A stretch of 64,000 nt of DNA, from IMG/VR virus record IMGVR_UViG_3300044729_003129, positions 96,001-160,000 of that record, one strand, 5' to 3'. Below are positions 12,350 to 47,178 of the stretch, in pieces. The notes under the pieces were generated by a model that did not search any database, had not been told where the DNA came from, and saw nothing but the letters and a program-made list of their open reading frames with translations. The DNA is from a virus. The translations under genes were made by a program, and so were the position numbers. Positions within the stretch are counted from its first letter, which is position 1. Each line of letters starts with the position of its first letter.

Positions 12350-14062
12350 TTATGGAACTGCTGGATAATTAGTTGTCTTCACATATGAGGAAGTAATCTT
12401 TGCGGCAGAGAAACCATTATTCCATGTTGTTACCAACCAAGGACGGCCTTCATAGCTATAAGCTCTGGCTATTTCTCCAAGAGTAGAATTTAAATAGAGC
12501 CAAACGCCAGTTTCATATCTTACAACTTCATCTCCATAAACATACGTTTCGTTACCATATGGTGCATATCCAATTGGAGCCATTTTGCGCCAACTTTGAC
12601 CGCCAATAAACCCAGAACTTGGATCTCCTGGAGTGTTGTACCATGGTCCGTCCATCAGCACCCATGCTGTAGCATCTGGTTCAGCAGCATTTGCTGGATT
12701 GTCACTGCCAAGAGTAACATTGCTAATTAATGGTATATTAATTCCTCCAAGCAAACCAATAAATCTTTCAAGGTGATTGCGATCAACCTCTGACATAACA
12801 TCAGTTTCTCCTGTATTTGATGCTAAGATGATTGCGGTTATATCTCCGTTAAAATTAATAGATGAACTTGTGGTTGCGCCAATATAAGAAGCAACTGAAC
12901 CACTATCGCTTAATGTAGAGCCAAAATCATCCCGAAATGCATCTTCACTACCATTGATTCTTAACGCCATTCTACCATCGGACCACAAACACTCGTTAAC
13001 TAAAACATTATAGTTGCTATTATTATTTGATCCATTAACCACTAAGTCACTAACAAAAAGTGTATTAGGTCTGGTTAGAGCTGTAAAAAGATTTGAAGTG
13101 TTTGATCTTGTTCTTAATCCTATTTTAGTAGTTGTTGAAGTTCTATTGATTGAAACTATTGAGTGAGATGCGTCTCCTCCAGTTGGATTGGAGTCTTTAG
13201 CACCAGCAAAAATATAACCCCATCTTTTGGCATTATATATGTTTCTTGCGGAGATTGGTACTGTATAAAAATCTGTAAAATCTGTACTATCAAATTTGAG
13301 AGATGGTGTTCCCAAGTCAGTATCTTCTTTGAGTGCAATATTTGCTGAAGAGGCAGTGGCTCTTTGATTTGAAATTATATCGTCCCAAGCTGGCACTGTT
13401 TGACCATCTGTTGCTAATGTATTAAGTGTTGTTGCTGTACCTGTTACAGTACCATCTGCCCAAGTCGCTTGCCACGGGTAAGTTGTATCTCCAATAGCAT
13501 ATTTTTCCACACTATCCCAATTATATCCTGAATCATCACTTTCCGCTTGATAATAAAGAGTCCATCTTGAATTTGTGCTATCCCAAAAAACTTCAATGGA
13601 ATATCTACCCTCATTTATAAAGCCAAATATATAAAAATTCTTTCCATTTCGTAAATCTTGGCGAACGAGTGTTTGATTTGGATTTATACCACTATAACCA
13701 GCCTCAAAAGCGGGAAACCCAGAAAGCTCGATAGTTCTATTCGCATCAGTAAAATCATTACCAATCAAGTTATAAGCATTTCTAGCAGCCCACCAAAAAG
13801 CTTTTACACTTGGTATGTCTCGTGGATGCCAAACTGTGGTTGTGTATGTTGTAGTACCACCAACTAAACAGGTGACAACTTCCCCAATATCATTGACAGT
13901 CGGGACAAAGGTTTGGGTTGTGCCTCTCGATGTGCCATTTACTGTCCATAAATAAGATGAACCAGATGGCGCGGTTAATGTTTCATTTGGATAAGCAAAA
14001 CCGACAATATCTAATTCAACACTTCCTCTAAAATAAGACAGGCTTAAACCTAGACCTAACAT
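12350..14062 (-). CDS. Putative head fibre / adhesin with lectin-like (ConA/LamG) central domain
   Basis: N-terminal MLGLGLSLS peptide resembles RcGTA-type head fibres; LamG-like segment (MALRING...FNGDITAII...DRNHLERF); Trp-rich modules. Confidence 0.6.
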   Translation of the reverse strand: MLGLGLSLSYFRGSVELDIVGFAYPNETLTAPSGSSYLWTVNGTSRGTTQTFVPTVNDIGEVVTCLVGGTTTYTTTVWHPRDIPSVKAFWWAARNAYNLIGNDFTDANRTIELSGFPAFEAGYSGINPNQTLVRQDLRNGKNFYIFGFINEGRYSIEVFWDSTNSRWTLYYQAESDDSGYNWDSVEKYAIGDTTYPWQATWADGTVTGTATTLNTLATDGQTVPAWDDIISNQRATASSANIALKEDTDLGTPSLKFDSTDFTDFYTVPISARNIYNAKRWGYIFAGAKDSNPTGGDASHSIVSINRTSTTTKIGLRTRSNTSNLFTALTRPNTLFVSDLVVNGSNNNSNYNVLVNECLWSDGRMALRINGSEDAFRDDFGSTLSDSGSVASYIGATTSSSINFNGDITAIILASNTGETDVMSEVDRNHLERFIGLLGGINIPLISNVTLGSDNPANAAEPDATAWVLMDGPWYNTPGDPSSGFIGGQSWRKMAPIGYAPYGNETYVYGDEVVRYETGVWLYLNSTLGEIARAYSYEGRPWLVTTWNNGFSAAKITSSYVKTTNYPAVP

Positions 14063-14066
14063 AAAA

Positions 14067-14351
14067 TTAGAATAATACTGTTACTGCAGCTGCAGATATA
14101 GCGGTTCCGCTTTGGACTATACGCTGACCACCAAGAGGCCATACTCCTGGACTCAATGTAAGTACACGTGTCTGGCCATTTACTCCTTCAATTTCAATGG
14201 TTCCATTAGCAGTACCAGGCGCAATATATAAACCAGCAAATACTTTGCCAACAGTTGGTGTGTAAAAGCCATCTGTAAAAGTCAGTGCTTCATATGCAAC
14301 AGCAGATGTGTTTTGGTGTATTAAACCCTTTTCGTAGACGTTAGTACTCAT
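14067..14351 (-). CDS. Putative head-spike base protein (Rcc01079-like)
   Basis: 94-aa beta-rich protein (GLYIAPG..GTIEIEG..GQTRVLTLSPGVWPLGGQRIVQSGT) directly upstream of the LGLGL protein; own late box at 14357-14364. Confidence 0.6.
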   Translation of the reverse strand: MSTNVYEKGLIHQNTSAVAYEALTFTDGFYTPTVGKVFAGLYIAPGTANGTIEIEGVNGQTRVLTLSPGVWPLGGQRIVQSGTAISAAAVTVLF

Positions 14352-14356
14352 AGTCT

Positions 14357-14364
14357 TATTTATA
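14357..14364 (-). promoter_or_regulatory. Late promoter TATAAATA (head-spike cassette)
   Basis: 5 nt from ATG 14351. Confidence 0.8.
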
Positions 14365-14520
14365 TTATTCTCTTATAGAGATTCCGGTGTATAATGAAAG
14401 ACCAAGCGCAATCAATACAACATAGTGAGAAATTACTTCATTTGGATTAATGACAGCATTAAATGATATTATTTGTATAATAGCAATAAGTGCTAGTGCT
14501 AACCATATTACAGTTTTCAT
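14365..14520 (-). CDS. Small two-TM membrane protein (51 aa), not in ORF track; possible antiholin or lysis accessory
   Basis: MKTVIWLALALIAIIQIISFNAVINPNEVISHYVVLIALGLSLYTGISIRE; ATGA overlap with the stop of the holin-like gene. Confidence 0.6.
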   Translation of the reverse strand: MKTVIWLALALIAIIQIISFNAVINPNEVISHYVVLIALGLSLYTGISIRE

Positions 14521-17307: not shown

Positions 17308-17490
17308 ATGAAATTAAATGAAAAAGTCTATATTAAAAGTGAATTTAAGGATCTACTCCGCAGCATGAATGTCGGAATTGTCGACTATATTGTGGTCTAT
17401 CGAACCGAAGGTGACAAGGTGTTTTTTAAAGCAAACTCTGCAAAACTACATCTCTCAAAAGAAGAGTTTGAAGAGGTCAAGTTACAATAG
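17308..17490 (+). CDS. Hypothetical 60-aa protein, divergent from glf
   Basis: Fills the gap exactly; late-like CATAAATA at 17291-17298; the only plausible plus-strand gene inside the minus-strand block. Confidence 0.55.
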   Translation: MKLNEKVYIKSEFKDLLRSMNVGIVDYIVVYRTEGDKVFFKANSAKLHLSKEEFEEVKLQ

Positions 17491-17659
17491 AATAATATTC
17501 AGTTGCCTCCTCTTCACTATCAAACCAATACCATCCATCTACTGGATAGTCATATTGATCTTTATTTTGTGCTACTAATGAAATATCTAAGCCTTCAACC
17601 CAATTTGGGGCATACAATATTTGTTCGTCTTCTTGTTTTTTATAGAATCCTGCTGTCAT
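17477..17659 (-). CDS. Small acidic, aromatic-rich protein; probable cap or chaperone for the LRR adhesin
   Basis: 60 aa with YPVDGWYWFDSEEEA; starts 4 nt after the LRR gene. Confidence 0.55.
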   Translation of the reverse strand: MTAGFYKKQEDEQILYAPNWVEGLDISLVAQNKDQYDYPVDGWYWFDSEEEATEYYSIVT

Positions 17660-17663: not shown

Positions 17664-20171
17664 TTATCCTGTTACAAGCCACCCTTTGAGGAAGGCTGTG
17701 CCTGTTCTTAATTGTCTAAATGTTAAACTATTTGCACCCCCCGCAGCCATTTGTCGTGATACTGTGATGCTTACGTTGGGGTTAATTGATACAACCTGTG
17801 TACGATAGCGTAAGGTTCCAGAACCGTTTGTCGTTAATGCTAGTGCTGGACCACCTAGAGTTGCCGCTACTTGAAATGTTCCAGCTGTAGCATTGACTAC
17901 ATAGTAGATTCTGTTAATAATAATACCAGTCGTTGTTACTCTAGTTGCAAAAGAAACTTCATCTCCATTACTTAATCCATGACTTGCAAGGTTGACTAAA
18001 TCACCTGCATCGGTAAATGTCACAGCTCTTGCTGTTGTAAGTGGTGATCCTGTTCCTGTAATTTGCATACCCACAGCAATACCAGTGGTGTCTGCCATTG
18101 TTATTGTTGTGCTTCCAGCTGTTGTAGTTCCTGTAAGAGTTACAGGTGTCGGCGCTCCCCAATTGTTTGTTACAGTTATTGTTTGAGAAGCAGCACCTAT
18201 TGTGTCTAGATAATTGAATATAGATTCTAATTCTTCTTTTGATAATTTACAACCACTATAACTTATTGAAAATTCTGAGCCATTTAATGCTGCTCTTGTA
18301 AGGTTTAGACAGGCACTAAATATACCATTAAATTTAAAAACGTCTGTACCTGCTCCTGAAATTAATAACGGTACAGTTACAAGAGAAGTACAATTATTAA
18401 ACATACTATTCATAGTAGTAACAGCCCCTGTATTGAATAGTGGTACACTTGTAAGAGAAGTACAACCATTAAACATACCACTCATGATTTGTACAGCCCC
18501 TGTATTGAATAGTGGTACAGTTGTAAGAGTAGTACAGCCACTAAACATATTACCCATAGTAGTAACAGCCCCCGTATTGAATAGTGGTACACTTGTAAGA
18601 GAAGAGCAACCAGCAAACATACTATTCATGAATTGTACAGCGCCTGTATTGAATAGTGGTACACTTGTAAGAGATCTGCAACCATTAAACATACCACTCA
18701 TATCAGTAACAGCCCCCGTATTGAATAGTGGTACAGTTGTAAGAGCAGTACAACCAAAAAACATACCACTCATATCAATAACAGCCCCTGTATTGAATAG
18801 TGGTACACTTGTAAGAGAAGTACAACCATTAAACATACTAGTCATATCAATAACAGCCCCTGTATTGAATAGTGGTACACTTGTAAGAGAAGAGCAACTA
18901 GCAAACATATTATCCATAGTAGTAACAGCCCCTGTATTGAATAGTGGTACACTTGTAAGAGTAGTACAGCCACTAAACATACTACCCATAGTAGTAACAG
19001 CCCCCGTATTGAATAGTGGTACAGTTGTAAGAGCAGTACAACCAAAAAACATACCACTCATATCAATAACAGCCCCCGTATTGAATAGTGGTACAGTTGT
19101 AAGAGAAGAGCAATTAACAAACATATTATTCATGAATTGTACAGCCCCTGTATTGAATAGTGGTACACTTGTAAGAGATCTGCAACCATTAAACATACCA
19201 CTCATAGTAATAACAGCCCCCGTATTGAATAGTGGTACAGTTGTAAGAGAAGAGCAACTAGCAAACATACCACTCATAGTAGTAACAGCCCCCGTATTGA
19301 ATAGTGGTACACTTGTAAGAGAAGTACAATTATTAAACATACTATTCATAGTAGTAACAGCTGATGTATTAAACAGCGGTACAGTTACAAGAGAAGTACA
19401 ACCATTAAACATACCACTCATACTAGTAACATTTTCAGTATTAAATAACGGTACAGTTGTAAGAGAAGAGCAACTCTGAAACATATTACTCATATTAGTA
19501 ATATTAGTAAGATCATTAAAAGATACATTTTTTAATGAAACTAAATTTGCAAATGAACTAGATAAGTTAGTTAATAATCCTATATTGACTCCAGTGAAAC
19601 TAACTAAATTTTTACAAAAAGCCAAAGAAGCGGTTGCATTATTAAGAGTTAAACCTGTTAAACTTGGGCAAGATAAAGCTATTTCTAATATAGGAGAAGA
19701 ATCAGGAAATGTAGATCCTGCTTGTGCATACTTTTGGTTAAAGTTTACACTTGTTATATTTTGACCAGCTTGAGGAGTAATGACTACAACTGCCATTTTA
19801 TAACCATCACTTGTAACGGTGGCATTTAAATCTGGGTCGGTATATGAATATTCATGTTGAGCTTTAACTCCAGATGCAACATTTTCTGTTACACCATCAC
19901 CCCAATCAACTGTATATGCTCCAGATATTGTAAAAGCAAGAAAGTTAGATCCTTGAGGATATACAGGCATCAACAAAGCTATTTTTTGCTCTGAAGATAT
20001 TATAGTCGGCATTGTTAGCCAATCAGCTGGACGAACCCATGGAGACGGTGTGGCTGGAGTTGCTGCTGCTGTTGGTCGTTTAATTCTAAGGCGATCAAAT
20101 CTATCCTTTTTAAAAAAAGAGGGTTTGCGTGAGACTAACGGTCCAACTTTATTTCCGTAACGAATACTCAT
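17664..20171 (-). CDS. BspA/DUF285-type leucine-rich-repeat adhesin
   Basis: Basic N-terminal arm, VDWGDG PKD-like domain, 16 x 24-aa MxxMFxxCxxLTxVPLFNTGAVxx repeats, C-terminal HGL-type beta domain. Confidence 0.85.
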   Translation of the reverse strand: MSIRYGNKVGPLVSRKPSFFKKDRFDRLRIKRPTAAATPATPSPWVRPADWLTMPTIISSEQKIALLMPVYPQGSNFLAFTISGAYTVDWGDGVTENVASGVKAQHEYSYTDPDLNATVTSDGYKMAVVVITPQAGQNITSVNFNQKYAQAGSTFPDSSPILEIALSCPSLTGLTLNNATASLAFCKNLVSFTGVNIGLLTNLSSSFANLVSLKNVSFNDLTNITNMSNMFQSCSSLTTVPLFNTENVTSMSGMFNGCTSLVTVPLFNTSAVTTMNSMFNNCTSLTSVPLFNTGAVTTMSGMFASCSSLTTVPLFNTGAVITMSGMFNGCRSLTSVPLFNTGAVQFMNNMFVNCSSLTTVPLFNTGAVIDMSGMFFGCTALTTVPLFNTGAVTTMGSMFSGCTTLTSVPLFNTGAVTTMDNMFASCSSLTSVPLFNTGAVIDMTSMFNGCTSLTSVPLFNTGAVIDMSGMFFGCTALTTVPLFNTGAVTDMSGMFNGCRSLTSVPLFNTGAVQFMNSMFAGCSSLTSVPLFNTGAVTTMGNMFSGCTTLTTVPLFNTGAVQIMSGMFNGCTSLTSVPLFNTGAVTTMNSMFNNCTSLVTVPLLISGAGTDVFKFNGIFSACLNLTRAALNGSEFSISYSGCKLSKEELESIFNYLDTIGAASQTITVTNNWGAPTPVTLTGTTTAGSTTITMADTTGIAVGMQITGTGSPLTTARAVTFTDAGDLVNLASHGLSNGDEVSFATRVTTTGIIINRIYYVVNATAGTFQVAATLGGPALALTTNGSGTLRYRTQVVSINPNVSITVSRQMAAGGANSLTFRQLRTGTAFLKGWLVTG
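18366..19493 (-). repeat. Coding tandem array of 16 units of 72 bp
   Basis: ACAGCCCCYGTATTGAATAGTGGTACA recurs at 18421, 18493, 18565 and onward with exact 72-bp periodicity; unit ATGs run from 19493 to 18413. Confidence 0.95.
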
Positions 20172-20172: not shown

Positions 20173-20538
20173 TTAACTTATTCTATTCACATATCCAAAA
20201 ATATTAATCCCACTTGCAACACTAGCATTGCCATAAATTGAAGATCCTGCAGTTCCGTTTCCCTTTAATATCAAACCGGGACAGATTAATGTATTTCCAG
20301 CATAAGCCTCAATAACACCTTCAAATAAAATATCAGTTGAAAAATCAGTTCCTCCATACAATACATTTAATGTAACATCTGCTGCTGTAGAATTTGTAGC
20401 ATACAACCATACCTCGTCCATTATATCTGATGATGCTTGTGTTGTGTGTATTGTTGTAGTGTTAGCACCAGTGGCAGTTATAACAATAGACTTGCCATTT
20501 GTGCTTTGCGATAATAATTGCTTTGTATATGTTGCCAT
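20173..20538 (-). CDS. 121-aa beta-rich virion adaptor-like protein
   Basis: MATYTKQLLSQSTNGKSI...DEVWLYATNS...IFGYVNRIS; 1 nt upstream of the LRR gene. Confidence 0.5.
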   Translation of the reverse strand: MATYTKQLLSQSTNGKSIVITATGANTTTIHTTQASSDIMDEVWLYATNSTAADVTLNVLYGGTDFSTDILFEGVIEAYAGNTLICPGLILKGNGTAGSSIYGNASVASGINIFGYVNRIS

Positions 20539-20827: not shown

Positions 20828-21166
20828 TTAACTTGGTCGTGTTGAGGCTGGTGATATTTCTACCTGTCCTTCAGCTATACGTATGACATGTCCGCCCGAA
20901 TTGTATATTTCAACATCATATACATATCGACCAGGTTTCATGCCGCGTGTTTGAGTTGCCGTTAATGATACACCAACTTTACCTTCTAATGGAAGGTTTA
21001 TAGATGTTGCAAAAGATATTGCGGTGTTTGAAGAATAGCTCTTACGTATCTGTCCACGAGAAAGATAGCCTGTAAGGTTAAACGGTAAGCCATTAGAGTC
21101 TTTTACGTCTATAACAGACGCGTAGGTGCTGCCCTGATCGATATAAATGTTACTATACGTCGCCAT
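20828..21166 (-). CDS. BppU-like virion attachment domain protein
   Basis: NIYIDQGSTY, NLTGY..RGQIRKSY, LTATQT..MKPGRYVYDVEI and RIAEG.VEISP. Confidence 0.65.
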   Translation of the reverse strand: MATYSNIYIDQGSTYASVIDVKDSNGLPFNLTGYLSRGQIRKSYSSNTAISFATSINLPLEGKVGVSLTATQTRGMKPGRYVYDVEIYNSGGHVIRIAEGQVEISPASTRPS

Positions 21167-21172: not shown

Positions 21173-21180
21173 TATTTATA
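21173..21180 (-). promoter_or_regulatory. Late promoter TATAAATA (BppU-LRR cassette)
   Basis: 6 nt from ATG 21166. Confidence 0.8.
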
Positions 21181-21187: not shown

Positions 21188-22402
21188 TTAATTACTAAAT
21201 GCGCCTTTAGATTTAGATCGTACAAATGTTCTAGTACCAAGTTGATCTGTTATATAAAAGGTATAATTTGTCATTTTACTATAATCAAAAGAATCCATAA
21301 ATAAGAAGAGTGAATAGTTTGGTTGCATATCACCTCTACGTTTATTTGGAATATTTAGTGGCACTTGTTTTCTTACTGTTCGGATTCTAAAATTACGATT
21401 CTCAAAATATGATTCAATAATGTCAAGTTCTAATTTTATAACATTTGTAGTTGTGTATATAATATCAATAAGCGTAGTGCGACCGGATTGATATGAATAA
21501 ATTTCTCCTTGAATAGTTCCACGTACAAGAGGTGTTGTTGAAGTATCGGCTATAGAAACTGCTGTGCTCGTCACAAGTATTCCACCACCTATACTTCCAG
21601 TACGTAAACTTGCGGTAAAGCTTGTAGGCCCTTCAGTTGTACTATCTAAGTTTGCAGTTACTGCAAAAGAATTACTGCCGCTAGAAACAACAAAACTCCC
21701 GTTATTAGGTGTCAAATCTGTTCTAGACGTAGTCCAATATAGTGTAGTTCCAGGGTTAACATTTGTAGTAGAGACATTAAATGTTACCGAACCTCCTTCA
21801 TTAATAGCAGATAATGAAGGCGCAATAGAATATGTAGGAATTGGAATCGAAGAATCAATTAACCCAATTGCATTGCTACGACCAACTTCTATTCCAGTCT
21901 GCGAGTCTTTACGTAAAATTGCTTGAAATGTAACATATCCTTCGGCAGTTGCATCAGTAGATGCAGTCGCACTAAAACTTGCTGTGCTAGAGTTTACTGT
22001 AATTGTACTTGCGCTTAATGTTAAGTCAGTTCTAGACAGTGACACATACAGGACTGTTCCATTAGGCACATCAGTCGTGGTTAATGTAAAGGTGACAGTT
22101 CGGTCAGTCGTTTCATTGATTGAAGTTTTATTCGCAACAATTGTGTATGTAGGAATAATTTCAAAGCCACCATTCATAAACAAATCGCGCAAGTCAACGC
22201 CAGCAGAATTTTTAAGTCCTGTAAGTTCAAATATTCGATCCCCTGCTCCTCGACTAGGCTCGTATCGGCTCGCTAAATCTTGAGTCGTATATGGGTTTGT
22301 AGAGGTCACTACATTATAACCACACGCTGCCCCAGCAGTTCCTACACGTAGTTTAAATAGATTATCAAAGTCAATGCCATTTACTGTATAACCTGATGAC
22401 AT
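21188..22402 (-). CDS. Putative fibre-tip adhesin with two Ig/Calx-beta-like domains
   Basis: Duplicated PTY.I......INE...VTF...TT.V..GT.LY domain; starts 3 nt after the S74 fibre gene. Confidence 0.55.
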   Translation of the reverse strand: MSSGYTVNGIDFDNLFKLRVGTAGAACGYNVVTSTNPYTTQDLASRYEPSRGAGDRIFELTGLKNSAGVDLRDLFMNGGFEIIPTYTIVANKTSINETTDRTVTFTLTTTDVPNGTVLYVSLSRTDLTLSASTITVNSSTASFSATASTDATAEGYVTFQAILRKDSQTGIEVGRSNAIGLIDSSIPIPTYSIAPSLSAINEGGSVTFNVSTTNVNPGTTLYWTTSRTDLTPNNGSFVVSSGSNSFAVTANLDSTTEGPTSFTASLRTGSIGGGILVTSTAVSIADTSTTPLVRGTIQGEIYSYQSGRTTLIDIIYTTTNVIKLELDIIESYFENRNFRIRTVRKQVPLNIPNKRRGDMQPNYSLFLFMDSFDYSKMTNYTFYITDQLGTRTFVRSKSKGAFSN

Positions 22403-23999: not shown

Positions 24000-24239
24000 T
24001 TAATTAGACTCTGGTGTCTGTAATACAACCTCATCACTTATATGATATACAAGATTGTTGTCTACTATATATTCTTCGCACTCTTCTTTTGTGCCGACAA
24101 ATAGATTTACTGATGTAGATGTCGTCGTCGTCGACTCAAAAAATTCAATTACAACTTTGTCGTCGTCGAAGAGCAGATGCCATAATCCGATATGAACTTC
24201 GTCGCTGTATGACCAACCATTATTTTTAGGACGTAACAT
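24000..24239 (-). CDS. Small acidic protein, probable partner of the PATR adhesin
   Basis: 79 aa with FVGTKEECEEYI; starts 1 nt after the PATR gene. Confidence 0.55.
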   Translation of the reverse strand: MLRPKNNGWSYSDEVHIGLWHLLFDDDKVVIEFFESTTTTSTSVNLFVGTKEECEEYIVDNNLVYHISDEVVLQTPESN

Positions 24240-40654: not shown

Positions 40655-42033
40655 TAGAATTGAATAATAATCTTGATTTCTTCAGTTTGAGCACTTTGAC
40701 GATTTATTTTTTTGCGATTTTCAGCAAATATAACTTCGCCACTACGTGGTGTATACTCATTGTTATTTACTGTTAAATAATTTATAGTGTTATTATTAGG
40801 TGCTGTAAATGAACCAGTTGATGGTACCACACCATATCCAGTAGTTGAGTTTTGGTGAAAATAAACACGATGTTGGGTGCTTCCACCAACAGAAACAGTA
40901 GAATAGTTATCAAAATACGCCTTTATTCCAGTCGTACCAAAGGTTATTAAACTACCAACTGCAGGAGTACTTGTTGGAGCAGACGCTAATGTTAGGTAAC
41001 GAAGCGCGGCTAGTGTATCAATTGATGAACCTTCAGAATATTCTATATCTTTTAATACCGATATTTGACGATATGGTATATACAACCCATCATCCGAAAT
41101 TGTATCAACTGCGTCTACCGCGATTCCAACATACCACGATGGTAAAGTTGCTGATGGTTTGTATGCAAATCCACCGGCAGGAGCAATATGTGGAACTATA
41201 ACTGCTCCAGATCCAGTTTCAGCTGGATCAAAAATAAAATATCCATCAACTATACCTTTTGAAGACTCCGCGATATAAGAATAGTCAGCAGGCAATAGCA
41301 CACTTTCAATCGCCCCAGTAGTAGAATTTATATTTACTGGGCATGTTATTGTAATTTCGGTGTCATTGATTTTTCGCGCAACAAACTGAACAGAATTTGT
41401 AGATGTATATCCACTGCCTCCAGAAGTTATTGTAAACCCGTATAATAACCCTCCACCATCATTTTCAATTGCTGCTGAAATTGAATCAGCAGCAACTCCA
41501 GAAGAAATGCTAATAAATTGATCAGTATTGATATTTGCAGTTGCAGTAACTACATTATCAACAAGTATCCATATATAACCATCACTGCCATAACTAAGGG
41601 CACGATAGTCAGTGGACACTGGAATGTTGGCAACTGCTCCGTCACCAGCCTTTAAGCATAGGTAAATTCGTCCACTTATAACTGCATAGCATGGATTAAC
41701 TTCTCCTCCACCAACAAGTGTACTAGGATAAAAACAATCGGGATCAGCTGGACTGTATGCCTTATAGCGAGCGCCAGCTTTCCATTTTATTTGTGGAATT
41801 ACCAGTCCGCTATTAACCGCATTAATCTTAATTAATGTAGTTAAATTTGATTTTATATCAGAGTCATCTGAAGGAATTCCAAGAGGAATAGGTATAACTA
41901 AACTTGTTGACTCCTCGTCGGTCGCCCATTGTTCAGATTTACCAAGCCCAAGATAATATGTACTGTCTGCAATATTGTCTAGAAAAAATTGAGCGTTGTT
42001 TCTACGAAAAGAGTCTGTTACGATTGCTGCCAT
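40654..42033 (-). CDS. gp8: Baseplate wedge subunit
   Basis: MAAIVTDSFRRNNA, YLGLGK..W, DGYIW, YRQIS and SGEVIFAENR..I.R...QTEEIKIIIQF. Confidence 0.9.
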   Translation of the reverse strand: MAAIVTDSFRRNNAQFFLDNIADSTYYLGLGKSEQWATDEESTSLVIPIPLGIPSDDSDIKSNLTTLIKINAVNSGLVIPQIKWKAGARYKAYSPADPDCFYPSTLVGGGEVNPCYAVISGRIYLCLKAGDGAVANIPVSTDYRALSYGSDGYIWILVDNVVTATANINTDQFISISSGVAADSISAAIENDGGGLLYGFTITSGGSGYTSTNSVQFVARKINDTEITITCPVNINSTTGAIESVLLPADYSYIAESSKGIVDGYFIFDPAETGSGAVIVPHIAPAGGFAYKPSATLPSWYVGIAVDAVDTISDDGLYIPYRQISVLKDIEYSEGSSIDTLAALRYLTLASAPTSTPAVGSLITFGTTGIKAYFDNYSTVSVGGSTQHRVYFHQNSTTGYGVVPSTGSFTAPNNNTINYLTVNNNEYTPRSGEVIFAENRKKINRQSAQTEEIKIIIQF

Positions 42034-42068: not shown

Positions 42069-43802
42069 TTAATTACCAAAAACCGTAGCGCATATTAATG
42101 GCCAATCAATCTTTGCATCAGTATCTTGTCCAGTGTACAAAGTAAAAGAGTCTTGTAAAAATGTATGTGGTGATGGTCCTTGCCATATATCGTCTATTGT
42201 TGTACCAACTCCAGAAGCAACTACACAATAATTACTATCAATCATAGGAGTAGAAAAATAAAGTTTGTATTGTCCAATTGCGCTCTTATTTATATATGAA
42301 ATATTATATGATGATCTAATCATACTTGATGATACATATGCCTTGTATGCTATTGCTGTTTCAGCAATAGCTGTATTGGCAGCAGTAATTATAGTAAATC
42401 GATTATTATCTAATCGTGTTATCTCATAATATCCAACAACAACACCGGTTGATGCATATATAGATTCCCCATTGCGAAGACCATGATTTACACTTTGAAT
42501 TGTTGCAATATTCGAACCGGTTGGTCGAGATACTGTATGTTGAGTGTATGTTATTGGCATATTAGTTATGACAGTAGTATTTGCTGCTACAGTAATATCA
42601 AATGTATGTTGTTGAGGATTACGAACAGTGTATATTCCAGCAGCTAAACCACTAATAGCAGTAATACTAATTTTATGATCGGCAGGCAAACCATGATTTA
42701 CGCTTCGTATTGTAGCTGTAGTATTTTGGCCGACTGTTCCAGATTTTGTAACCGTGTGAACCGCGTATGATATTGCAACATTACTTAACGCGGTGGCAGC
42801 AATCGTAGAAATATTAAATGTATCTGGTCCGGTAACTTGGATTGGATATGGTCCAATGGCAACTCCAGTCGACGCGTATATAGTATAACCATCTGGCAAA
42901 CCATGATTTGTACTTGTAATTATTGCAGTTGTTGAACCAACCCCGCGAAATACCGTGCCAGACCTAGTTGTTATTGCAGATTTATCAATCGATGCTGCTT
43001 CACTGCCATTAAAATTTATCCAGGCTTTTGCAGCAGGTGCAAAAGTTTTTAATGTATTTGGTGAAACATAATCTGTAGTATCACTCGCCTGTGATACTAT
43101 GCCAGAACCATTTGCTTTAAGTAAACCACTTGTAGTTCCAGCCCCTCCTTTATTCGCCGGTACAACGTCTAAAGAAATATTTCTAGAAGCACCCGTACCA
43201 GTAATACCAATTGGTGATTCAGCAGTAATATTACCTATTTTGACATTCAACTGCGATTGTATATTATCGGTAACGCCACTCAATCGACTAATTTCAGTTC
43301 CAGAAACAGATCCAATTGTTGTAGTTAAATTTGGTAAAAATACATTTCCAGTAAATGTAGGATTATGAAACATTGTAGCCTTGCTTTGATTGTCTACATT
43401 TTCTAATCCCACGTGAACCTTTGTGATTCCAGTTACTGTTCCAGTAAAGGTTGGATTTGCACGGTTTGCCTTAAGATCCAACTGTCCTTGAATACCACTA
43501 GTAACTCCACTTAGACGTCCTATTTCAGCACTATTAACTGGTCCTATAGAGGTTGTGGTTGGTAGCACCACATTTCCATCAAATGTAGGAGAATTAAGAT
43601 TTGCCTTTGTTGATAAGACAGTTACCATTATAGGTGGCACACTCGAAATCAAATTTGCTAGTTGATTTGCTGCATTAGACGCAGTAATCTTTCTATTTGT
43701 CCCTACAGGACTCATTGTTCGATCATCAACATCAATGATTTGAATGAGATCATTACTCGTAATAGTAGTTGCCGTATCTAGGTCTGTAATTTTAACTGGC
43801 AT
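42069..43802 (-). CDS. Tail fibre protein with three nested HGL domains
   Basis: KITDL N-terminal motif; KANxxxPTFTG shaft repeats; AKAWINFNG...IRSSYNI tip domain interrupted by three NHGL modules. Confidence 0.75.
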   Translation of the reverse strand: MPVKITDLDTATTITSNDLIQIIDVDDRTMSPVGTNRKITASNAANQLANLISSVPPIMVTVLSTKANLNSPTFDGNVVLPTTTSIGPVNSAEIGRLSGVTSGIQGQLDLKANRANPTFTGTVTGITKVHVGLENVDNQSKATMFHNPTFTGNVFLPNLTTTIGSVSGTEISRLSGVTDNIQSQLNVKIGNITAESPIGITGTGASRNISLDVVPANKGGAGTTSGLLKANGSGIVSQASDTTDYVSPNTLKTFAPAAKAWINFNGSEAASIDKSAITTRSGTVFRGVGSTTAIITSTNHGLPDGYTIYASTGVAIGPYPIQVTGPDTFNISTIAATALSNVAISYAVHTVTKSGTVGQNTTATIRSVNHGLPADHKISITAISGLAAGIYTVRNPQQHTFDITVAANTTVITNMPITYTQHTVSRPTGSNIATIQSVNHGLRNGESIYASTGVVVGYYEITRLDNNRFTIITAANTAIAETAIAYKAYVSSSMIRSSYNISYINKSAIGQYKLYFSTPMIDSNYCVVASGVGTTIDDIWQGPSPHTFLQDSFTLYTGQDTDAKIDWPLICATVFGN

Positions 43803-43814: not shown

Positions 43815-45230
43815 TTAGAATTTTATGCAATACAGCATTGCGATGTTTGCTGGGCGGGTTTCACCACCCGCTGTCCACCATCCGGCATTAACTCCATGTG
43901 TATATACATTGTGAGAGTGCGCCCCCGAAGCACTAGTTGTTCCAGTTTGAACCTGCGCTACTTTAGTTCCATCACTCCCTGCATCAACCTTATCATATCT
44001 TGGTTCAGTATATGTGTGAGTATGATTCCCTTGAACATCTGTATAACCATTGTGAGTGTGGTCTTGGAACATTTGACTTTGTTTTGCGCCAAATGCACCA
44101 GTTGTTGTACCATCACCATTAGTTCCCCAAGCACGAACGAAATACCCCCTCAAATCAGGTAGATTGAAAGTTGTACTATTATTTCCTGCGCCATATGTCG
44201 TGCCAATAGCTGCAAAAAGTGCTGGATAACCAGAAGCCCCTGCTCGGTCGACTGCCTGACCATTAGCCCATAGCCAACCTGCCGGTGCACTACCCATAGC
44301 AAAAGCCATAACTGCTCCCGCTGGAACAAAGCTAATTGTAGTGCCACCAACAGTAGTTGTACTTGGTAGTGCTACATTTCCAGAGAATATTGGGCTTGCA
44401 AGATTTGCTTTAAGGTTTAATGCAGTCGCAGTGTCTGTAGATATTGGTTTATTAAGATCACTTGTATTATCAACATTACCAAGTCCAACCATGCTCTTTG
44501 TAATGCCGCCTACTGTTCCAGAGAATGTTGGATTTAAAATATTTGCTTTAAGGTTTAATGCAGTCGCAGTGTCTGTAGATATTGGTTTATTAAGATCACT
44601 TGTATTATCAACATTACCTAGTCCAACTGCTGACTTTGATAGTCCACTTATAGCAGAAGAAAATTGGGTAAAGACTATTGGATCAGTGCCAACTACAGCG
44701 ACATCACTCGTTACAACCCATGAACTGCCTTTAAGAGTATTGCCACCATCTACAAGTACATAACCATCATTAATCTCTATTACCTCATTAAAGTCTGTGG
44801 CACGAAGTGGGGACCCTGTTGTCTGAACAACATAGATTCCATTTTGAGCAGGTGCGCTTTGATCTTTTAGGAGTACACGATTGCCAGATGCAAGGGTCAC
44901 TCCATCCATACTAGACGACGGAGTTATGTTTGATAGTGTAAAATTGATTCCAGGAGATGCAGCAACAACTGGAATTGCAATTTTTAAACCGGCACTATTA
45001 AAGTTTTCAAGTGATACTTTGCTGTCTAGTTCATCTTGTATAACTTGTGGTATGGTTGTCGACAGTCGAGAGAGTCCATTTGCAAGTGTGCTTGCTTTAA
45101 TTTTACGATTTGTACCAGTTGGATATGTTGACGAAGTCTGCTCAATATTAATTATTTGTAAGAGGTCATTTGACGTTACATCTGTGTCAGCTGTTAGTTC
45201 GCTTAACTGTGAAATTTTTATGGTAGCCAT
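43815..45230 (-). CDS. Short-tail-fibre-like protein with tail collar and HxH metal-binding tip
   Basis: KISQL N-terminus; VPAGAVMAFA..GWL.ANGQ..YPALFAAIG..FNLPDLRG collar; DHTH, NHTH and AHSH motifs; ETRPANIAMLYCIK end. Confidence 0.85.
   Translation of the reverse strand: MATIKISQLSELTADTDVTSNDLLQIINIEQTSSTYPTGTNRKIKASTLANGLSRLSTTIPQVIQDELDSKVSLENFNSAGLKIAIPVVAASPGINFTLSNITPSSSMDGVTLASGNRVLLKDQSAPAQNGIYVVQTTGSPLRATDFNEVIEINDGYVLVDGGNTLKGSSWVVTSDVAVVGTDPIVFTQFSSAISGLSKSAVGLGNVDNTSDLNKPISTDTATALNLKANILNPTFSGTVGGITKSMVGLGNVDNTSDLNKPISTDTATALNLKANLASPIFSGNVALPSTTTVGGTTISFVPAGAVMAFAMGSAPAGWLWANGQAVDRAGASGYPALFAAIGTTYGAGNNSTTFNLPDLRGYFVRAWGTNGDGTTTGAFGAKQSQMFQDHTHNGYTDVQGNHTHTYTEPRYDKVDAGSDGTKVAQVQTGTTSASGAHSHNVYTHGVNAGWWTAGGETRPANIAMLYCIKF
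44403..44627. repeat. Near-perfect direct repeat of about 87 bp at 138-bp spacing within a fibre gene
   Basis: ATTTGCTTTAAGG...CAACATTACC is identical at 44403-44480 and 44541-44618; encodes GNVDNTSDLNKPISTDTATALNLKAN twice. Confidence 0.92.
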
Positions 45231-45236: not shown

Positions 45237-45244
45237 TATTTATA
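45237..45244 (-). promoter_or_regulatory. Late promoter TATAAATA (collar fibre)
   Basis: 6 nt from ATG 45230. Confidence 0.8.
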
Positions 45245-45249: not shown

Positions 45250-46128
45250 TTATATTATGTTGCGAACAACTCGGAAACCGGTCGCGTTTGAAGATCCTGG
45301 TTGACCGCCACCATTTCTAAGTGCTACTCCTACATCTGTCGTGTTTGTCGAAGCCCAACTACCGCCTCGAACTACTCTGCTGTTAAAGTTTATACCTGAA
45401 GTTGGTCCACGTGGATTAGTCAGATCGGTTGGGTTATAACTTTCTGCATAATAATCCCAACACAACTCACTAATATTACCTGCCATATCATATAATCCAT
45501 AGCTGTTTGGTGGAAAGGTTCCTACTGCAGTAGTATTCGGCCGATCTGCCCCGCCTTGCCCGGTAAAATTCATATAATTTGCTTCAACTTGTGTAATAGT
45601 ATCACCTAACGGATATCTTTTTCCGTTTAGTCCTCCTCTCGCTGCTTTTTCCCATTCAGCCTCAGTCGGAAGCCTGTAACCATTAGCATCCCATTTTACA
45701 TGCGTGCTAGGTAGATTTGTACTTCCAGTCTTGTAGACTGTTGTCTGAGCGATATCAGTGTAGTAAATTGGAATAAGTCCTTCCTTTTGACTACGTGCAT
45801 TACACCATTTTACAGCATCAAACCAAGTGACATAACCAATAGGGTGATTGCTAGCTGCGCCGAACCCCATAGATGGAGCCATCGGAATTTCTGAAGCTAA
45901 ATCTGTATATCCATTGGTTAATCCCCAAGTACGTACTTCATTCCATTCGCCCCTTGTCACTTCATATTTGCCCATATAGAAAGCATCCAAGGTCACTGTG
46001 CGAATTGGAGCATTCTGTGTGCCATCCAACGAGTCCCCCATCGTGAAGGCCCCCTGTGGAATGAAAGCCCATGCGTTTGATCCTCCATTACGTCGCCGAC
46101 GCTTTCTTTTAACTGCAGAAAATAACAT
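45250..46128 (-). CDS. FGE-sulfatase (C-type-lectin-fold) domain protein with a poly-basic N-terminal arm
   Basis: FTMGD, GKYEVT, YRLPTEAEWEKAARGG, NSYGLYDMAGNISE, RVVRGGSW and GFRVVR; N-terminus MLFSAVKRKRRRR. Confidence 0.9.
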   Translation of the reverse strand: MLFSAVKRKRRRRNGGSNAWAFIPQGAFTMGDSLDGTQNAPIRTVTLDAFYMGKYEVTRGEWNEVRTWGLTNGYTDLASEIPMAPSMGFGAASNHPIGYVTWFDAVKWCNARSQKEGLIPIYYTDIAQTTVYKTGSTNLPSTHVKWDANGYRLPTEAEWEKAARGGLNGKRYPLGDTITQVEANYMNFTGQGGADRPNTTAVGTFPPNSYGLYDMAGNISELCWDYYAESYNPTDLTNPRGPTSGINFNSRVVRGGSWASTNTTDVGVALRNGGGQPGSSNATGFRVVRNII

Positions 46129-46129
46129 A

Positions 46130-47164
46130 TCAAATAAAGTCCCAAGTATTGCTACTTATATTTTTTATTGCACACACTTCACCAGCAAGCACAGTTGCAG
46201 CATCATTATTATTAACTGTAACACCATTTGCTGCAGTTAGCGTCAATGAACCTGCTCCAGTGTTGCGTCTAAATGTAATTGTAGTTCCTACTGGAGCTGA
46301 CGTTAAAACGGGTAGTATAATAGTTATAGCACCCGCATTTGAAAGACGCACATATTTATTATAATGAGTGCTGCTAAGAGTCAGCGTAGATGTGGATATT
46401 TCTAATATGTTGTTATAACTATTAATTATTTCAGATTGCACAAAGGCTGTCGTAGCAATTTGTGTAGTATTTGTGCCAACGCTCGCTGTCGTTGATAGCG
46501 GAGTCCCTGTAAAGGTAGGACTGCTAAACATCGTGCCCTTGCTTTCATTTGTGACAGCGCCCAGTCCTACCATAGTTGCAGTTATACCAGCTACAGTTCC
46601 AGTAAATGTTGGACTTGCTAGGTTCGCCTTTAAGTTTAATGCTGTTTGTGTTGCAGTTGAAACAGGTTTGCTTGCATCACTCGTATTGTCAACATCGCTG
46701 AGCCCAACCATAGTGGCGGTAATACCAGACACCGTTCCAGTGAATGTAGGAGATTCACGAGGTGCTTTAGAGTTTAACTGTGTTTGAACGCTAGACGTTA
46801 TTCCACTGAGGTAACCTATTTCTGTACTAGTTAGACCGCCAAAAGTAAAACCATCAAGTTGAGATTGTATATTATCTCTCAATCCTGACAAAAAGCTTAT
46901 TTCAGTACCAGTCACACCGCCAATAGTCGTAGTGGCTGGCAGTGTGACATCGCCAGTAAATGTGGGGTTTGTTTGAATCTTGGCACTGCTCAATGCACCA
47001 TCAGAAAGTCCGTCAAACAATGAATCTGCAAGATCACCTATAGATATAATTGCATTACTGCCATTTTCTGACATAAGTGGGTTAGAGGCGTCAATAATTG
47101 GTACAGAATCATTTGCTGCCGCCGCAGTTACAACTTCTAATTGTGAAAATTTAATATCTGGCAT
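46130..47164 (-). CDS. Tail fibre protein with C-terminal adaptor-like domain
   Basis: KFSQL N-terminus, LKANLASPTFTG repeats, TNTTQIATTAFV and C-terminal ITIILP..GTTITF..GAGSLTL..NTW domain. Confidence 0.75.
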   Translation of the reverse strand: MPDIKFSQLEVVTAAAANDSVPIIDASNPLMSENGSNAIISIGDLADSLFDGLSDGALSSAKIQTNPTFTGDVTLPATTTIGGVTGTEISFLSGLRDNIQSQLDGFTFGGLTSTEIGYLSGITSSVQTQLNSKAPRESPTFTGTVSGITATMVGLSDVDNTSDASKPVSTATQTALNLKANLASPTFTGTVAGITATMVGLGAVTNESKGTMFSSPTFTGTPLSTTASVGTNTTQIATTAFVQSEIINSYNNILEISTSTLTLSSTHYNKYVRLSNAGAITIILPVLTSAPVGTTITFRRNTGAGSLTLTAANGVTVNNNDAATVLAGEVCAIKNISSNTWDFI

Positions 47165-47170
47165 ATCTAT

Positions 47171-47178
47171 TATTTATA
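47171..47178 (-). promoter_or_regulatory. Late promoter TATAAATA (fibre-FGE cassette)
   Basis: 6 nt from ATG 47164; overlaps the gp7 stop. Confidence 0.8.

What the first reader, a model, noticed from the sequence alone, without database searches (positions are those of the whole stretch)
12350..47178. Plug-in adhesin display system: at least five anchor-plus-adhesin cassettes carrying bacterial-type surface domains
Seen: a recurring layout of late box, then fibre or anchor gene, then (1-4 nt gap) a globular adhesin with a short N-terminal arm, sometimes followed by a small acidic gene. A: 46130-47164 plus FGE domain 45250-46128. B: 29004-30872 plus LamG 28096-29001, PATR 24241-28083 and a 79-aa gene. 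C: S74 fibre 22406-23980 plus Ig-like 21188-22402. D: BppU-like, 90-aa and 121-aa genes plus LRR 17664-20171 and a 60-aa gene. E: 94-aa base plus LGLGL fibre. A, C, D and E each begin with their own TATAAATA. The fibres of A and B end in a similar domain (LTLP/IILP...G.....N.GAG/GGA.LT...W/F). Established: T-even gp37-gp38 is a trimeric fibre capped by a separately encoded adhesin. Inference: the virion generalises this into several swappable sockets that recruit domains through N-terminal arms, replacing the gp9-gp12/wac genes that are not recognisable here.
Basis: partly seen in the sequence, partly recalled or inferred. Interest (0 to 1): 0.8.

Follow-up and report, generated by a model that had tools for sequence, protein, structure and literature searches.

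The report
Modular fibre-and-adhesin island, T4-like phage
This 35-kb stretch is the host-recognition island of an uncultured freshwater T4-like phage, where tail fibres and spikes seem to be built from separately encoded pieces joined by short conserved end-motifs, and close relatives swap the sugar-binding-type heads; the general principle is known, but these particular joints are not described.

Summary
All genes, gaps (1-4 nt, one of 12), four TATAAATA boxes and the FGE, LamG, PATR, S74 and DUF285/LRR domains are where stated. "BppU-like" is really T5 p132/LtfC-like, and "Ig-like" has no significant hit.

The region is the host recognition cluster already described for pelagi- and cyanomyophages, lying between a VrlC-like gene and the neck genes, plus three paralogous fibres between gp7 and gp8.

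- Relatives with 94-99% identical backbones carry different cargo behind the same junction motifs.
- Tiny proteins (65, 69, 90 aa) consist of little more than two junction ends.

The sockets are of at least four kinds:
- an XD1 (gp9/gp10/TSP4)-fold tip on fibres A and B;
- an LtfC-like collar and a 121-aa connector in D;
- a 94-aa base in E whose partner starts with an RcGTA-like L-G-L-G-L peptide.

LamG is an insertion in an adaptor, not a terminal head. Pair A shows divergence, not swapping, and pair C is doubtful.

Physical docking is inferred, not shown. The scan has noted the D-type joint before in other aquatic phages. Verdict: new variant of a known kind, moderately interesting.

The parts
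47171..47178 (-). Late-promoter box TATAAATA ahead of the fibre A / FGE pair
46130..47164 (-). Fibre A (344 aa). It has an N-terminal anchor shared with the 471-aa and 577-aa fibres, SPTFTG-type fibre repeats and a C-terminal XD1-like tip domain.
   Evidence: PHROG tail-fibre hits; anchor alignment A5; tip homology to the B tip; 94-99% identical in 8 relatives
45250..46128 (-). FGE-sulfatase / C-type-lectin-fold protein (292 aa) with the basic N-terminal arm MLFSAVKRKRRRR. There is no cysteine in the C-terminal RGGSW...GFR segment.
   Evidence: Pfam E 1.6e-47. The arm is invariant and divergence is concentrated in the C-terminal loops. Identity in relatives is 57-83%. No template repeat and no reverse transcriptase in the genome.
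43815..45230 (-). Fibre with a gp12-type Collar domain (471 aa) and its own TATAAATA at 45237. Its N-terminal anchor is paralogous to that of fibre A.
   Evidence: Pfam Collar E 1.1e-20; phrog_523 E 8e-34; 58-77% identity in relatives
42069..43802 (-). Third fibre with the same N-terminal anchor (577 aa). Only the first 124-193 aa are conserved in relatives; the distal part is replaced.
34823..42033 (-). gp8 homologue (40654-42033) and a VrlC-like 1943-aa protein (34823-40654). These mark the upstream border of the host recognition cluster.
   Evidence: Phage-Gp8 E 2.5e-10 and phrog_438; phrog_358 and DUF4815; PMC7029224
30874..34581 (-). 1235-aa protein with RCC1-like and FG-GAP repeats and an N-terminus aligning weakly (27% identity) with the A-type fibre anchor.
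29004..30872 (-). Fibre B (622 aa). It is an in-frame fusion of what are two genes (547 + 595 aa) in relative G1, and it ends in the XD1-like tip ...KFIAIGVLN.
28096..29001 (-). Adaptor with an inserted LamG domain (301 aa). It combines the N-terminal arm MNIQDFKRATLAQV, a LamG insertion and a C-terminal W-G-D-G...SHTY half-module.
   Evidence: Pfam E 5e-15. Bare 65-69-aa versions occur in G1, L115 and L116. Its C-terminus aligns to residues 45-108 of the LRR protein, E 2e-7.
24241..28083 (-). PATR-repeat protein (1280 aa). Its first ~40 aa are the conserved plug also found on the LRR_4 cargo proteins of relatives.
   Evidence: Pfam PATR; N-terminus comparisons
24000..24239 (-). 79-aa acidic protein that closes cassette B; probable assembly chaperone. 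It carries the motif EECEEYIVDNNL, shared with the 69-96-aa genes of relatives.
22406..23980 (-). Fibre with a C-terminal S74 intramolecular chaperone (524 aa); TATAAATA at 23988.
   Evidence: Pfam E 3e-15; 86-94% identity in relatives
21188..22402 (-). 404-aa protein with two internal repeats. The first 292 aa are conserved and the last ~110 aa are replaced in relatives.
20828..21166 (-). T5 p132/LtfC-like small beta protein (112 aa), a candidate fibre-anchoring collar; TATAAATA at 21173.
   Evidence: phrog_3304 E 9e-22; 8hqz_Q E 2.6e-4; PMC10713586
20554..20826 (-). 90-aa mini-fibre. It keeps the N-terminal ~90 residues of the 1585-aa G1 fibre (61% identity) and ends in the hydrophobic tail ...STIIGLSIFL.
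20173..20538 (-). 121-aa connector protein (phrog_30535). It always lies directly upstream of the DUF285 protein.
17664..20171 (-). DUF285 / BspA-type LRR protein (835 aa) with a conserved basic N-terminal arm and a W-x-R-P...V-D-W-G-D-G N-terminal module.
   Evidence: Pfam. All of the 120 N-terminal homologues listed (of 163 hits) carry DUF285 or LRR_5.
17477..17659 (-). 60-aa acidic protein (motif W-Y-W-F-D-S-E-E-E-A) conserved downstream of DUF285 genes; probable chaperone.
14067..14351 (-). 94-aa beta-rich base protein of cassette E; TATAAATA at 14357.
   Evidence: 34 related loci, 59-98% identical
12350..14062 (-). 570-aa protein starting M-L-G-L-G-L-S-L-S-Y. A LamG-like cargo of about 430 aa is inserted between the plug and a conserved 121-aa C-terminus.

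Best explanation
The region is the host-recognition island of a freshwater T4-like myovirus. It encodes six or seven separate fibre or spike systems, and most of them are transcribed from their own late promoter.

Within a system, consecutive translationally coupled genes give polypeptides that most likely join head to tail. The upstream protein ends in a small beta domain or a hydrophobic tail. Sometimes a tiny connector protein is encoded between the two. The downstream protein starts with a conserved peptide of 10-40 residues that docks there, probably by beta-strand addition.

Between or behind these junction modules sit ligand-binding 'cargo' domains:
- a C-type-lectin/FGE fold
- LamG
- a PATR-repeat protein (probably a beta-helix)
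- a BspA-type LRR
- in relatives, an FG-GAP propeller, plant-type LRR and a trypsin-like domain

Recombination at or near the junctions exchanges cargo between close relatives and so changes what the virion binds.

Shown: the gene order, domains, promoters, conserved junction motifs with swapped cargo, and the fold of the A/B tip.
Inferred: the physical docking, the stoichiometry, presence in the virion and the position on it.
For: 1. Context. The genes lie between baseplate genes (gp25, gp6, gp7, gp8) and neck genes (gp13, gp14, gp15). This matches the 'host recognition cluster' between VrlC and gp14 in PMC7029224.

2. Mosaic conservation against relatives with 94-99% identical backbones:
- Fibre A is 94/98% identical but FGE only 83/59%.
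- In fibre B only the first 203 aa are kept.
- LamG, the 79-aa, 121-aa, LRR and 60-aa genes have no match in either relative. PATR has only a 39% match to its first 72 aa in G1.

3. Junction B is kept in 13 contigs. The tip ...KFIA[IL]G.L[YN] is followed 1-3 nt (13 nt in L115) later by a gene starting MNI/MNL. That gene carries LamG, nothing (65-69 aa), a trypsin-like domain (330/514 aa) or FG-GAP (402 aa).

4. The next junction (...SH.Y, then M..[RST]SI..P.NG..S[IV].AI.CG) carries PATR, LRR_4 proteins of 336-685 aa, an unannotated 499-aa protein, or a 69-aa chimera.

5. The LamG C-terminus and the PATR N-terminus align collinearly to one contiguous N-terminal module of the DUF285 protein (E 2e-7 and 0.016).

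6. The AF2 model of the tip (pLDDT 72) matches CBA120 TSP4 XD1 (Z 11.1), a KP1 baseplate protein (11.3) and the C-terminus of the Pa223 capsid spike (11.6). T4 gp9 and gp10 appear by Foldseek. There is a clear drop to Z 3.6 after the related hits.

7. D. In L109 and L113 the order LtfC-like collar, fibre (1199 or 515 aa), 121-aa connector, DUF285, small acidic gene is complete, at 46-55% identity in L109. L110, L112 and L114 keep the connector, DUF285, small-gene part.

8. E. In 33 of 33 loci the gene after the 94-aa base starts 1-4 nt later with [LF]-G-L-G-[LM]-x-L-x-Y, then continues for 136 to 1183 aa with at least five different C-termini. L115 has the same pair with PATR cargo.

9. Solved precedents for such docking:
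- the KP32 RBP2 29-aa docking peptide
- T4 gp10 and CBA120 XD domains
- the RcGTA head fibre I-A-L-G-L-G-L-G-L star on a pentameric base
- DT57C LtfA strands added to LtfC sheets
Against:
- The tip fold is XD1. In TSP4 and gp10 that domain is regarded as a spacer, not as the XD2/XD3 docking module. It also ends a capsid spike and a depolymerase, so it could itself be the binding tip.
- No natural tip-plus-cargo fusion exists among 10 longer homologues.
- The 121-aa connector is unrelated to the tip by hhalign. The 94-aa base shows no sequence match to any solved chain.
- The read-through LamG|PATR model is poor (pLDDT 53) and uninformative.
- At A the cargo diverges but is never replaced, and conservation extends about 80 aa into FGE. 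Conservation of the arm could therefore simply mark a recombination boundary.
- The 69-aa chimera could be a recombination scar.
- Conserved adjacency can also result from co-inheritance of cassettes.
Confidence: 0.6

Rival explanations
1. The lectin-type proteins are independent virion decorations. Each uses its conserved N-terminus to bind a conserved baseplate, tail or capsid site directly, not the product of the preceding gene. Adjacency reflects shared late transcription and cassette-wise recombination only.
For: - Three or four fibres share one N-terminal anchor, so a common virion site clearly exists for some of them.
- The XD1-type tip is not the known docking module and is always the very end of its protein.
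- No fused forms were found.
- The FGE arm is strongly basic, unlike the other arms.
Against: - It does not explain 65-69-aa proteins made only of an N-terminal arm plus a half-module, always placed between a tip and a plug-bearing cargo gene.
- It does not explain the strict order fibre, 121-aa, DUF285 in five unrelated contigs.
- It does not explain the collinear split of one module over the LamG and PATR genes.
Confidence: 0.22
2. Several of the downstream genes are not virion parts. They would be assembly chaperones or enzymes that act on the host surface or on virion proteins: an FGE-like modifying enzyme, the trypsin-like protein of relatives, or partners of the nearby glf genes.
For: - Genes just after fibre genes are often chaperones.
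- The 60-aa and 79-aa acidic proteins fit that role.
- The island also holds glf and two paralogous genes, and such islands are known to carry glycosyltransferases.
- The relatives' 330-aa protein has a G-D-S-G-T-P motif.
Against: - The FGE-fold protein has no cysteine in the segment where, from my knowledge of FGE, the two catalytic cysteines lie.
- Its divergence is concentrated in the loops that form the ligand-binding face in C-type-lectin-fold variable proteins.
- LamG, PATR and LRR are binding rather than catalytic domains, and they are far larger than known fibre chaperones.
Confidence: 0.1
3. The pattern is an accident of dense late operons. Tight gene spacing and late boxes are found everywhere in this phage, so the 'cassettes' carry no meaning beyond ordinary fibre-gene diversity.
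For: - Gaps of 1-4 nt and TATAAATA boxes also occur outside the region.
- B has no box of its own.
Against: The junction motifs recur with different cargo in dozens of independent contigs, down to 46-59% identity. Operon density alone cannot produce that.
Confidence: 0.03

Closest known systems
Host recognition cluster (HRC) of pelagimyophages and cyanomyophages (Zaragoza-Solas et al. 2020, PMC7029224)
   Same: [quoted passage not shown] It holds fibres, proteins with carbohydrate-binding domains and sugar-metabolism genes. Here the VrlC-like gene lies at 34823-40654, glf at 16255-17253 and gp13/gp14 at 10005-12328.
   Different: That paper describes the island as a whole. It does not describe conserved junction motifs, connector proteins or mini-adaptors. 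This phage is only about 37% identical in gp6 to the nearest cultured phage, and it has three extra fibres between gp7 and gp8.
Branched receptor-binding protein systems: KP32/K11/KP34 RBP1 branching domain plus RBP2 docking peptide (PMC6872550, PMC13352976); CBA120 TSP1-4 (PMC8825819)
   Same: A second, separately encoded binding protein is fastened to a first one through a short conserved N-terminal peptide or domain. The heads are exchangeable. The A/B tip has a fold found in TSP4, gp10 and gp9.
   Different: The matching domain here is XD1, not the XD2/XD3 docking jellyrolls. It lies at the far C-terminus of a fibre rather than near the anchor. The cargo is lectin-like rather than a depolymerase. 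The chains are serial, up to three or four proteins long, and include bare adaptors.
T-even long tail fibre: gp34-gp35-gp36-gp37 joints and the gp38 adhesin of T2/T6/S16-type phages (PMC3157838, PMC12032242)
   Same: A fibre is assembled from consecutive gene products. A small, separately encoded adhesin caps the tip and is the main variable host-range determinant.
   Different: No sequence relationship to gp34-38 was found. There are several parallel systems instead of one. The cargo domains are of types common in bacterial surface proteins.
RcGTA head spike: pentamer of the jellyroll base Rcc01079 holding one head fibre Rcc01080 by its N-terminal I-A-L-G-L-G-L-G-L peptide (PMC7296036)
   Same: In cassette E, a small beta-rich protein is followed by a protein whose N-terminus has hydrophobic residues at five alternating positions (L-G-L-G-L-S-L-S-Y). 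This peptide is kept in 33 of 33 relatives while the rest of the protein varies.
   Different: No sequence similarity of the 94-aa protein to any solved chain was detected. Its fold, pentameric state and location are untested. The host virus is a T4-like phage, not a GTA.
T5 / DT57C lateral tail fibre attachment: dodecameric LtfC (p132) collar with LtfA N-terminal strands added to its sheets (PMC10713586)
   Same: The 112-aa protein matches p132/LtfC by sequence. As in T5, it is encoded directly before a fibre gene (90 aa here; 515-1585 aa in relatives).
   Different: T5 is a siphovirus, and where such a collar would sit on a contractile tail is unknown. Here the fibre continues into a 121-aa connector and a DUF285 head.

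Membership tests
Host recognition cluster of aquatic T4-like myophages | [quoted passage not shown] | tested here: met
   A VrlC-like 1943-aa gene (phrog_358, DUF4815) lies upstream; gp13, gp14 and gp15 lie downstream. Content differs between relatives whose backbones are 94-99% identical.
Host recognition cluster of aquatic T4-like myophages | Contains fibre genes, carbohydrate-binding domains and sugar-related genes | tested here: met
   S74, Collar, LamG and FGE-fold domains and GLF are present.
Branched RBP system (T4gp10-like branching domain plus docking peptide) | Primary RBP carries an XD2/XD3-type (gp10-like) jellyroll that binds the partner | tested here: inconclusive
   The tip model matches TSP4 residues 81-180, which is XD1, together with gp9, CpaA and StcE. 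This is the XD1 set of PMC8825819, not XD2/XD3.
Branched RBP system (T4gp10-like branching domain plus docking peptide) | Secondary RBP starts with a short conserved peptide while the rest varies | tested here: met
   The MNI arms, the M..[RST]SI..P.NG plug, the MSIRYG.K arm and the MLFSA.KRKRRRR arm are conserved ahead of variable cargo.
Branched RBP system (T4gp10-like branching domain plus docking peptide) | Peptide and domain bind each other and are needed for incorporation into the virion | not testable with these tools
   Needs multimer prediction, pull-down or phage genetics.
T-even gp37/gp38 fibre-adhesin pair | Sequence homology to gp37 or gp38 | tested here: not met
   No Pfam hit to gp37 or gp38 families. 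PHROG long-tail-fibre hits cover only the S74 C-terminal region of the 524-aa fibre.
RcGTA-type head spike | Fibre N-terminus with about five alternating (iso)leucines | tested here: met
   M-L-G-L-G-L-S-L-S-Y in the window and [LF]-G-L-G-[LM]-x-L-x-Y in 33 of 33 relatives. The motif is described in PMC7296036.
RcGTA-type head spike | Base protein is a pentameric jellyroll homologous to Rcc01079, on capsid pentons | tested here: inconclusive
   A profile of eight base proteins found no solved chain related to Rcc01079 (best E 0.023, to an unrelated SCPU protein).
T5 LtfC (p132) collar plus lateral fibre | Sequence homology of the small protein to p132/LtfC | tested here: met
   phrog_3304 E 8.8e-22; 8hqz_Q E 2.6e-4 and 7qg9_R E 0.18.
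T5 LtfC (p132) collar plus lateral fibre | Fibre gene adjacent to the collar gene, with its N-terminus docking in the collar | tested here: inconclusive
   Adjacency holds in the window, G1, G3, L109 and L113. Docking was not tested.
Diversity-generating retroelement target (C-type-lectin / FGE fold) | Template repeat and reverse transcriptase in the same genome | tested here: not met
   No second copy of the FGE 3' end in the 173.8-kb genome. No RVT_1 match, although the control genomes did match.
Formylglycine-generating enzyme | Two catalytic cysteines in the C-terminal segment (from my knowledge of FGE) | tested here: not met
   The sequence from RGGSW to GFR contains no cysteine.

The most novel reading that the evidence does not exclude
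Aquatic T4-like phages may use a small set of matched 'end-peptide / tiny connector / start-peptide' joints as a combinatorial docking code. The code would include bare adaptor proteins of 65-90 aa and a binding module whose two halves are supplied by two different polypeptides (the LamG adaptor and the PATR or LRR protein). Whole binding heads could then be chained, branched and swapped without touching the baseplate. These joints would replace the gp9-gp12 layer of T4.
Probability: 0.35. Interest if true: 0.65.

Novelty: new variant of a known kind. Interest (0 to 1): 0.5.

Why it matters
Most abundant aquatic T4-like phages lack recognisable gp9-gp12 and long-fibre genes, so it is not known how they hold and exchange their receptor-binding parts. 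This window and its near-identical relatives give a natural swap series: the same junctions carry LamG, FG-GAP, trypsin-like, PATR, LRR or no cargo. That series defines the probable joints to within 10-40 residues, which makes them directly testable by multimer prediction, pull-downs or cryo-EM. If the joints hold, they would help predict host range from metagenomes and would explain how such phages change specificity quickly.

Tried and rejected
- DGR idea for the FGE-fold protein: rejected. There is no template repeat and no reverse transcriptase.
- Megablast of 20 kb against cultured phages: no match. The nearest gp6 is 37% identical.
- Folding the LamG|PATR junction as a natural read-through (two in-frame TAA read as Q, P0122) with DUF285 homologues as the alignment: pLDDT 53, only LRR-like matches at Z 6.2 or less, uninformative.
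- Search for tip-plus-cargo fusions: none found. The tip is C-terminal in all 10 longer homologues.
- hhalign of the 121-aa connector against the tip: unrelated.
- PDB sequence searches: the tip profile and the 94-aa base profile found nothing significant.
- Pfam gp9/10_N and GP11 in the whole genome: no match, but the control genomes were also silent, so this says little.
- Context of FGE homologues in Microcystis phage Ma-LMM01, and of fibre B homologues in Xanthomonas phage X1 and Limnohabitans phage DC31: not informative.
- ESM Atlas for the 121-aa protein: only unnamed viral clusters.
- Pair C could not be tested decisively. The N-termini of the genes after S74 fibres in distant relatives share at most a weak motif.

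Full report
**What the window is.**
The window is bases 96001-160000 of a 173,760-bp virus record estimated to be 97% complete. All genes of interest are on the minus strand. PHROG and Pfam searches give a T4-type order:
- tail-tube cap, gp5 in pieces, gp25, gp6 (phrog_219, E 5e-147) and gp7
- the region under study
- gp13, a homing endonuclease, gp14, gp15 and the large terminase

The nearest cultured phages are Methylophilales phage Melnitz, pelagimyophages and cyanomyophages. They are only 32-37% identical in gp6, and megablast finds nothing.

**Check of the observation.**
TATAAATA occurs 21 times against 9 expected, 20 of them on the coding strand. Boxes lie directly before A, C, D and E. 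Further boxes lie before the Collar fibre (45237), gp8 (42052) and gp13 (12336). Cassette B therefore belongs to one long unit, from gp8 through the VrlC-like gene to the 79-aa gene.

Two labels need changing:
- The 112-aa gene is T5 p132/LtfC-like.
- The 404-aa protein has no significant Ig hit.

The likeness of the A and B fibre ends is real but modest.

**What the region is as a whole.**
The 1943-aa protein (phrog_358, DUF4815) is the VrlC-type gene. The stretch from it to the neck genes matches the 'host recognition cluster' described for pelagi- and cyanomyophages. That cluster is a hypervariable island with fibres, carbohydrate-binding proteins and sugar-related genes (PMC7029224). Here glf and two paralogues lie inside it.

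Upstream, between gp7 and gp8, three fibres (344, 471 and 577 aa) share a ~55-aa N-terminal anchor (31-35% identity). The 1235-aa propeller protein aligns with it more weakly (27%). The 471-aa fibre carries a gp12-type Collar domain (E 1e-20), so gp12-like parts are not wholly absent.

**The comparative test.**
Eight viral contigs carry fibre A at 94-99% identity, and seven carry the FGE protein at only 57-83%. I fetched two longer relatives, G1 (backbone about 94%) and G3 (about 98-99%), and scored every window protein against them.
- Backbone genes are 91-99% identical.
- The 577-aa fibre keeps only its first 124-193 aa.
- Fibre B keeps only its first 203 aa at high identity.
- LamG, the 79-aa, 121-aa, DUF285 and 60-aa genes have no counterpart. 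PATR has only a weak match to its first 72 aa in G1.
- The 404-aa protein loses its last ~110 aa.
- The 570-aa protein keeps only its last 121 aa in G1.

**Cassette B in detail.**
In G1 and G3 the fibre is split into more genes, with recurrent ends:
- ...FTVDAD[IV]NTY, then MSQQTLYNDLVITG
- ...DGQYNIMS[KN]LF, then MATGPLTINN (a free-standing 125-131-aa tip protein)
- ...KFIA[IL]G.L[YN], then a gene starting MNI or MNL

The window's 622-aa fibre is an in-frame fusion of G1's 547-aa and 595-aa genes.

The gene after the tip varies between contigs:
- a bare 65-69-aa protein in G1 and in the distant L115 and L116 (tip 54-56% identical)
- the same protein with LamG inserted, in the window
- a trypsin-like protein of 330 or 514 aa
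- an FG-GAP protein of 402 aa

In L117 the adaptor frame is broken.

The following gene always starts with a ~40-aa plug (M..[RST]SI..P.NG..S[IV].AI.CG.S.P.LGG). It carries PATR in the window, LRR_4 repeats or an unannotated 499-aa protein in relatives, or is reduced to a 69-aa chimera in G3. A small acidic gene with the motif EE.E.YI.DN closes the set.

The adaptor's C-terminal half aligns to residues 45-108 of the window's DUF285 protein (E 2e-7). The PATR N-terminus aligns to residues 139-187 (E 0.016). One N-terminal module that is contiguous in DUF285 proteins is therefore divided between two genes here. I tried to fold the junction as a natural read-through, but the model was too poor to use.

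**The tip domain.**
An AF2 model of the free-standing tip protein (pLDDT 72) matches the following:
- CBA120 TSP4 residues 81-180 (Z 11.1, rmsd 2.5, 91 residues aligned)
- a Klebsiella phage KP1 baseplate protein (Z 11.3)
- the C-terminus of the Pa223 capsid spike (Z 11.6)
- CpaA (Z 8.5) and StcE (Z 7.4)
- T4 gp9 and gp10, by Foldseek

The next unrelated hit has Z 3.6. According to PMC8825819, TSP4 residues 81-180 form XD1. This is the gp9-like domain regarded as a spacer, not the XD2/XD3 modules that bind partners. The fold places the tip among phage adaptor domains, but it does not prove that it is a socket. In ten longer homologues the domain is always the very end of the protein, and no tip-cargo fusion exists.

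**Cassette A.**
The arm MLFSA.KRKRRRR is invariant, and conservation continues through about the first 80 residues. Divergence sits in the C-terminal half, including the RGGSW...GFR segment, which has no cysteine. That is the ligand-binding region of C-type-lectin-fold variable proteins. There is no template repeat or reverse transcriptase. The pair shares one promoter and a 1-nt gap, but the cargo is never replaced, so support is weaker here.

**Cassette D.**
The 112-aa protein is LtfC/p132-like. In DT57C, LtfC forms a collar whose sheets are extended by N-terminal strands of the fibre (PMC10713586). The 90-aa gene matches the N-terminal ~90 residues of G1's 1585-aa fibre (61% identity). It ends in a hydrophobic tail similar to that of the 1199-aa fibre in L109.

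The set of 121-aa protein, DUF285 and small acidic gene recurs in L109, L113 and L114, at 46-55% identity in L109. L110 has a truncated connector gene at the contig end. L112 has a divergent 143-aa gene in the connector's place. The upstream fibres range from 90 to 1199 aa. All of the 120 N-terminal homologues of the DUF285 protein that were listed (163 hits in all) carry DUF285 or LRR_5. Earlier reports of this scan describe the same 'greasy tail, small connector, swappable tip' arrangement in other aquatic phages. I treat those only as a lead, and the calls above are my own check.

**Cassette E.**
Thirty-four loci carry the 94-aa protein at 59-98% identity. In all 33 with sequence downstream, the next gene starts 1-4 nt later with [LF]-G-L-G-[LM]-x-L-x-Y. 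It then runs for 136 to 1183 aa with at least five unrelated C-termini. L115 has the pair with PATR cargo. The window's 570-aa protein is the 138-aa form with a ~430-aa LamG-like insertion.

The N-terminal peptide resembles that of the RcGTA head fibre. [quoted passage not shown] The base itself shows no sequence match to solved chains, so the resemblance is at motif level only.

**Cassette C.**
The S74 fibre is conserved, and the next protein keeps 292 aa and swaps its end. The S74 chaperone is normally cleaved off (established knowledge of the family), so a cap on that C-terminus is unlikely. This pair remains unresolved.

**Conclusion.**
The layout is real and the cargo does swap behind conserved junctions. 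The 'single generalised socket' idea gives way to several different joints, some with solved precedents: docking peptides of branched receptor-binding proteins (PMC6872550, PMC13352976), gp38 adhesins (PMC3157838), the RcGTA spike and T5 LtfC. Physical docking is still an inference, to which I give about 0.6 overall: higher for E, B and D, lower for A, low for C.

Noticed in passing
window 14913-17253 (-): UDP-galactopyranose mutase (GLF, E 4.5e-53) is followed by two paralogous 223/225-aa genes of unknown family. They sit inside the fibre island and are 93-97% conserved in G1.
   Followed up: partly
window 54421-56950 (-): The gp5 hub matches are split. The N-terminal part of phrog_430 maps to 56183-56950 and a later part to 54421-55257. 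A separate peptidase/endolysin-like gene (55332-56144) lies between them.
   Followed up: no
window 10940-11551 (-): An HNH/homing-endonuclease-like gene lies between gp13 and gp14. It is absent from relative G1, where gp13 and gp14 are adjacent.
   Followed up: partly
window 7097-8713 (-): The large terminase is mosaic against G1: residues 272-538 are 96% identical but residues 8-270 only 70%.
   Followed up: no
L094:10456-10665 (relative G3): A 69-aa ORF joins the first ~37 aa of the LRR-cargo plug to the last ~32 aa of the 413-aa shaft protein. It is either a pure two-ended adaptor or an in-frame recombination scar. It is present in four contigs.
   Followed up: partly
L094:9456-10448; L098:5306-6850: The cargo after the tip in several relatives has trypsin-like motifs, including G-D-S-G-T-P. 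The 514-aa version carries a ~180-aa insertion. An enzyme rather than a lectin at an adhesin position.
   Followed up: no
L117:6289-6428: In this distant relative the 65-69-aa adaptor reading frame is interrupted, with pieces in two frames. The tip fibre and the LRR cargo are intact.
   Followed up: no
window 52005-54416 (-): An 803-aa gene between the gp5 pieces and gp25 has no Pfam or PHROG match. Its first ~150 aa are not conserved in G1.
   Followed up: no
window 14365-14837 (-): A holin-like 106-aa gene (weak LydA/holin hits) and a 51-aa membrane protein sit between the glf genes and cassette E.
   Followed up: no
window 18433-19479 (+): A long antisense ORF (348 aa) runs across the LRR repeats. 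It is most likely a by-product of the repeat periodicity, not a gene.
   Followed up: no
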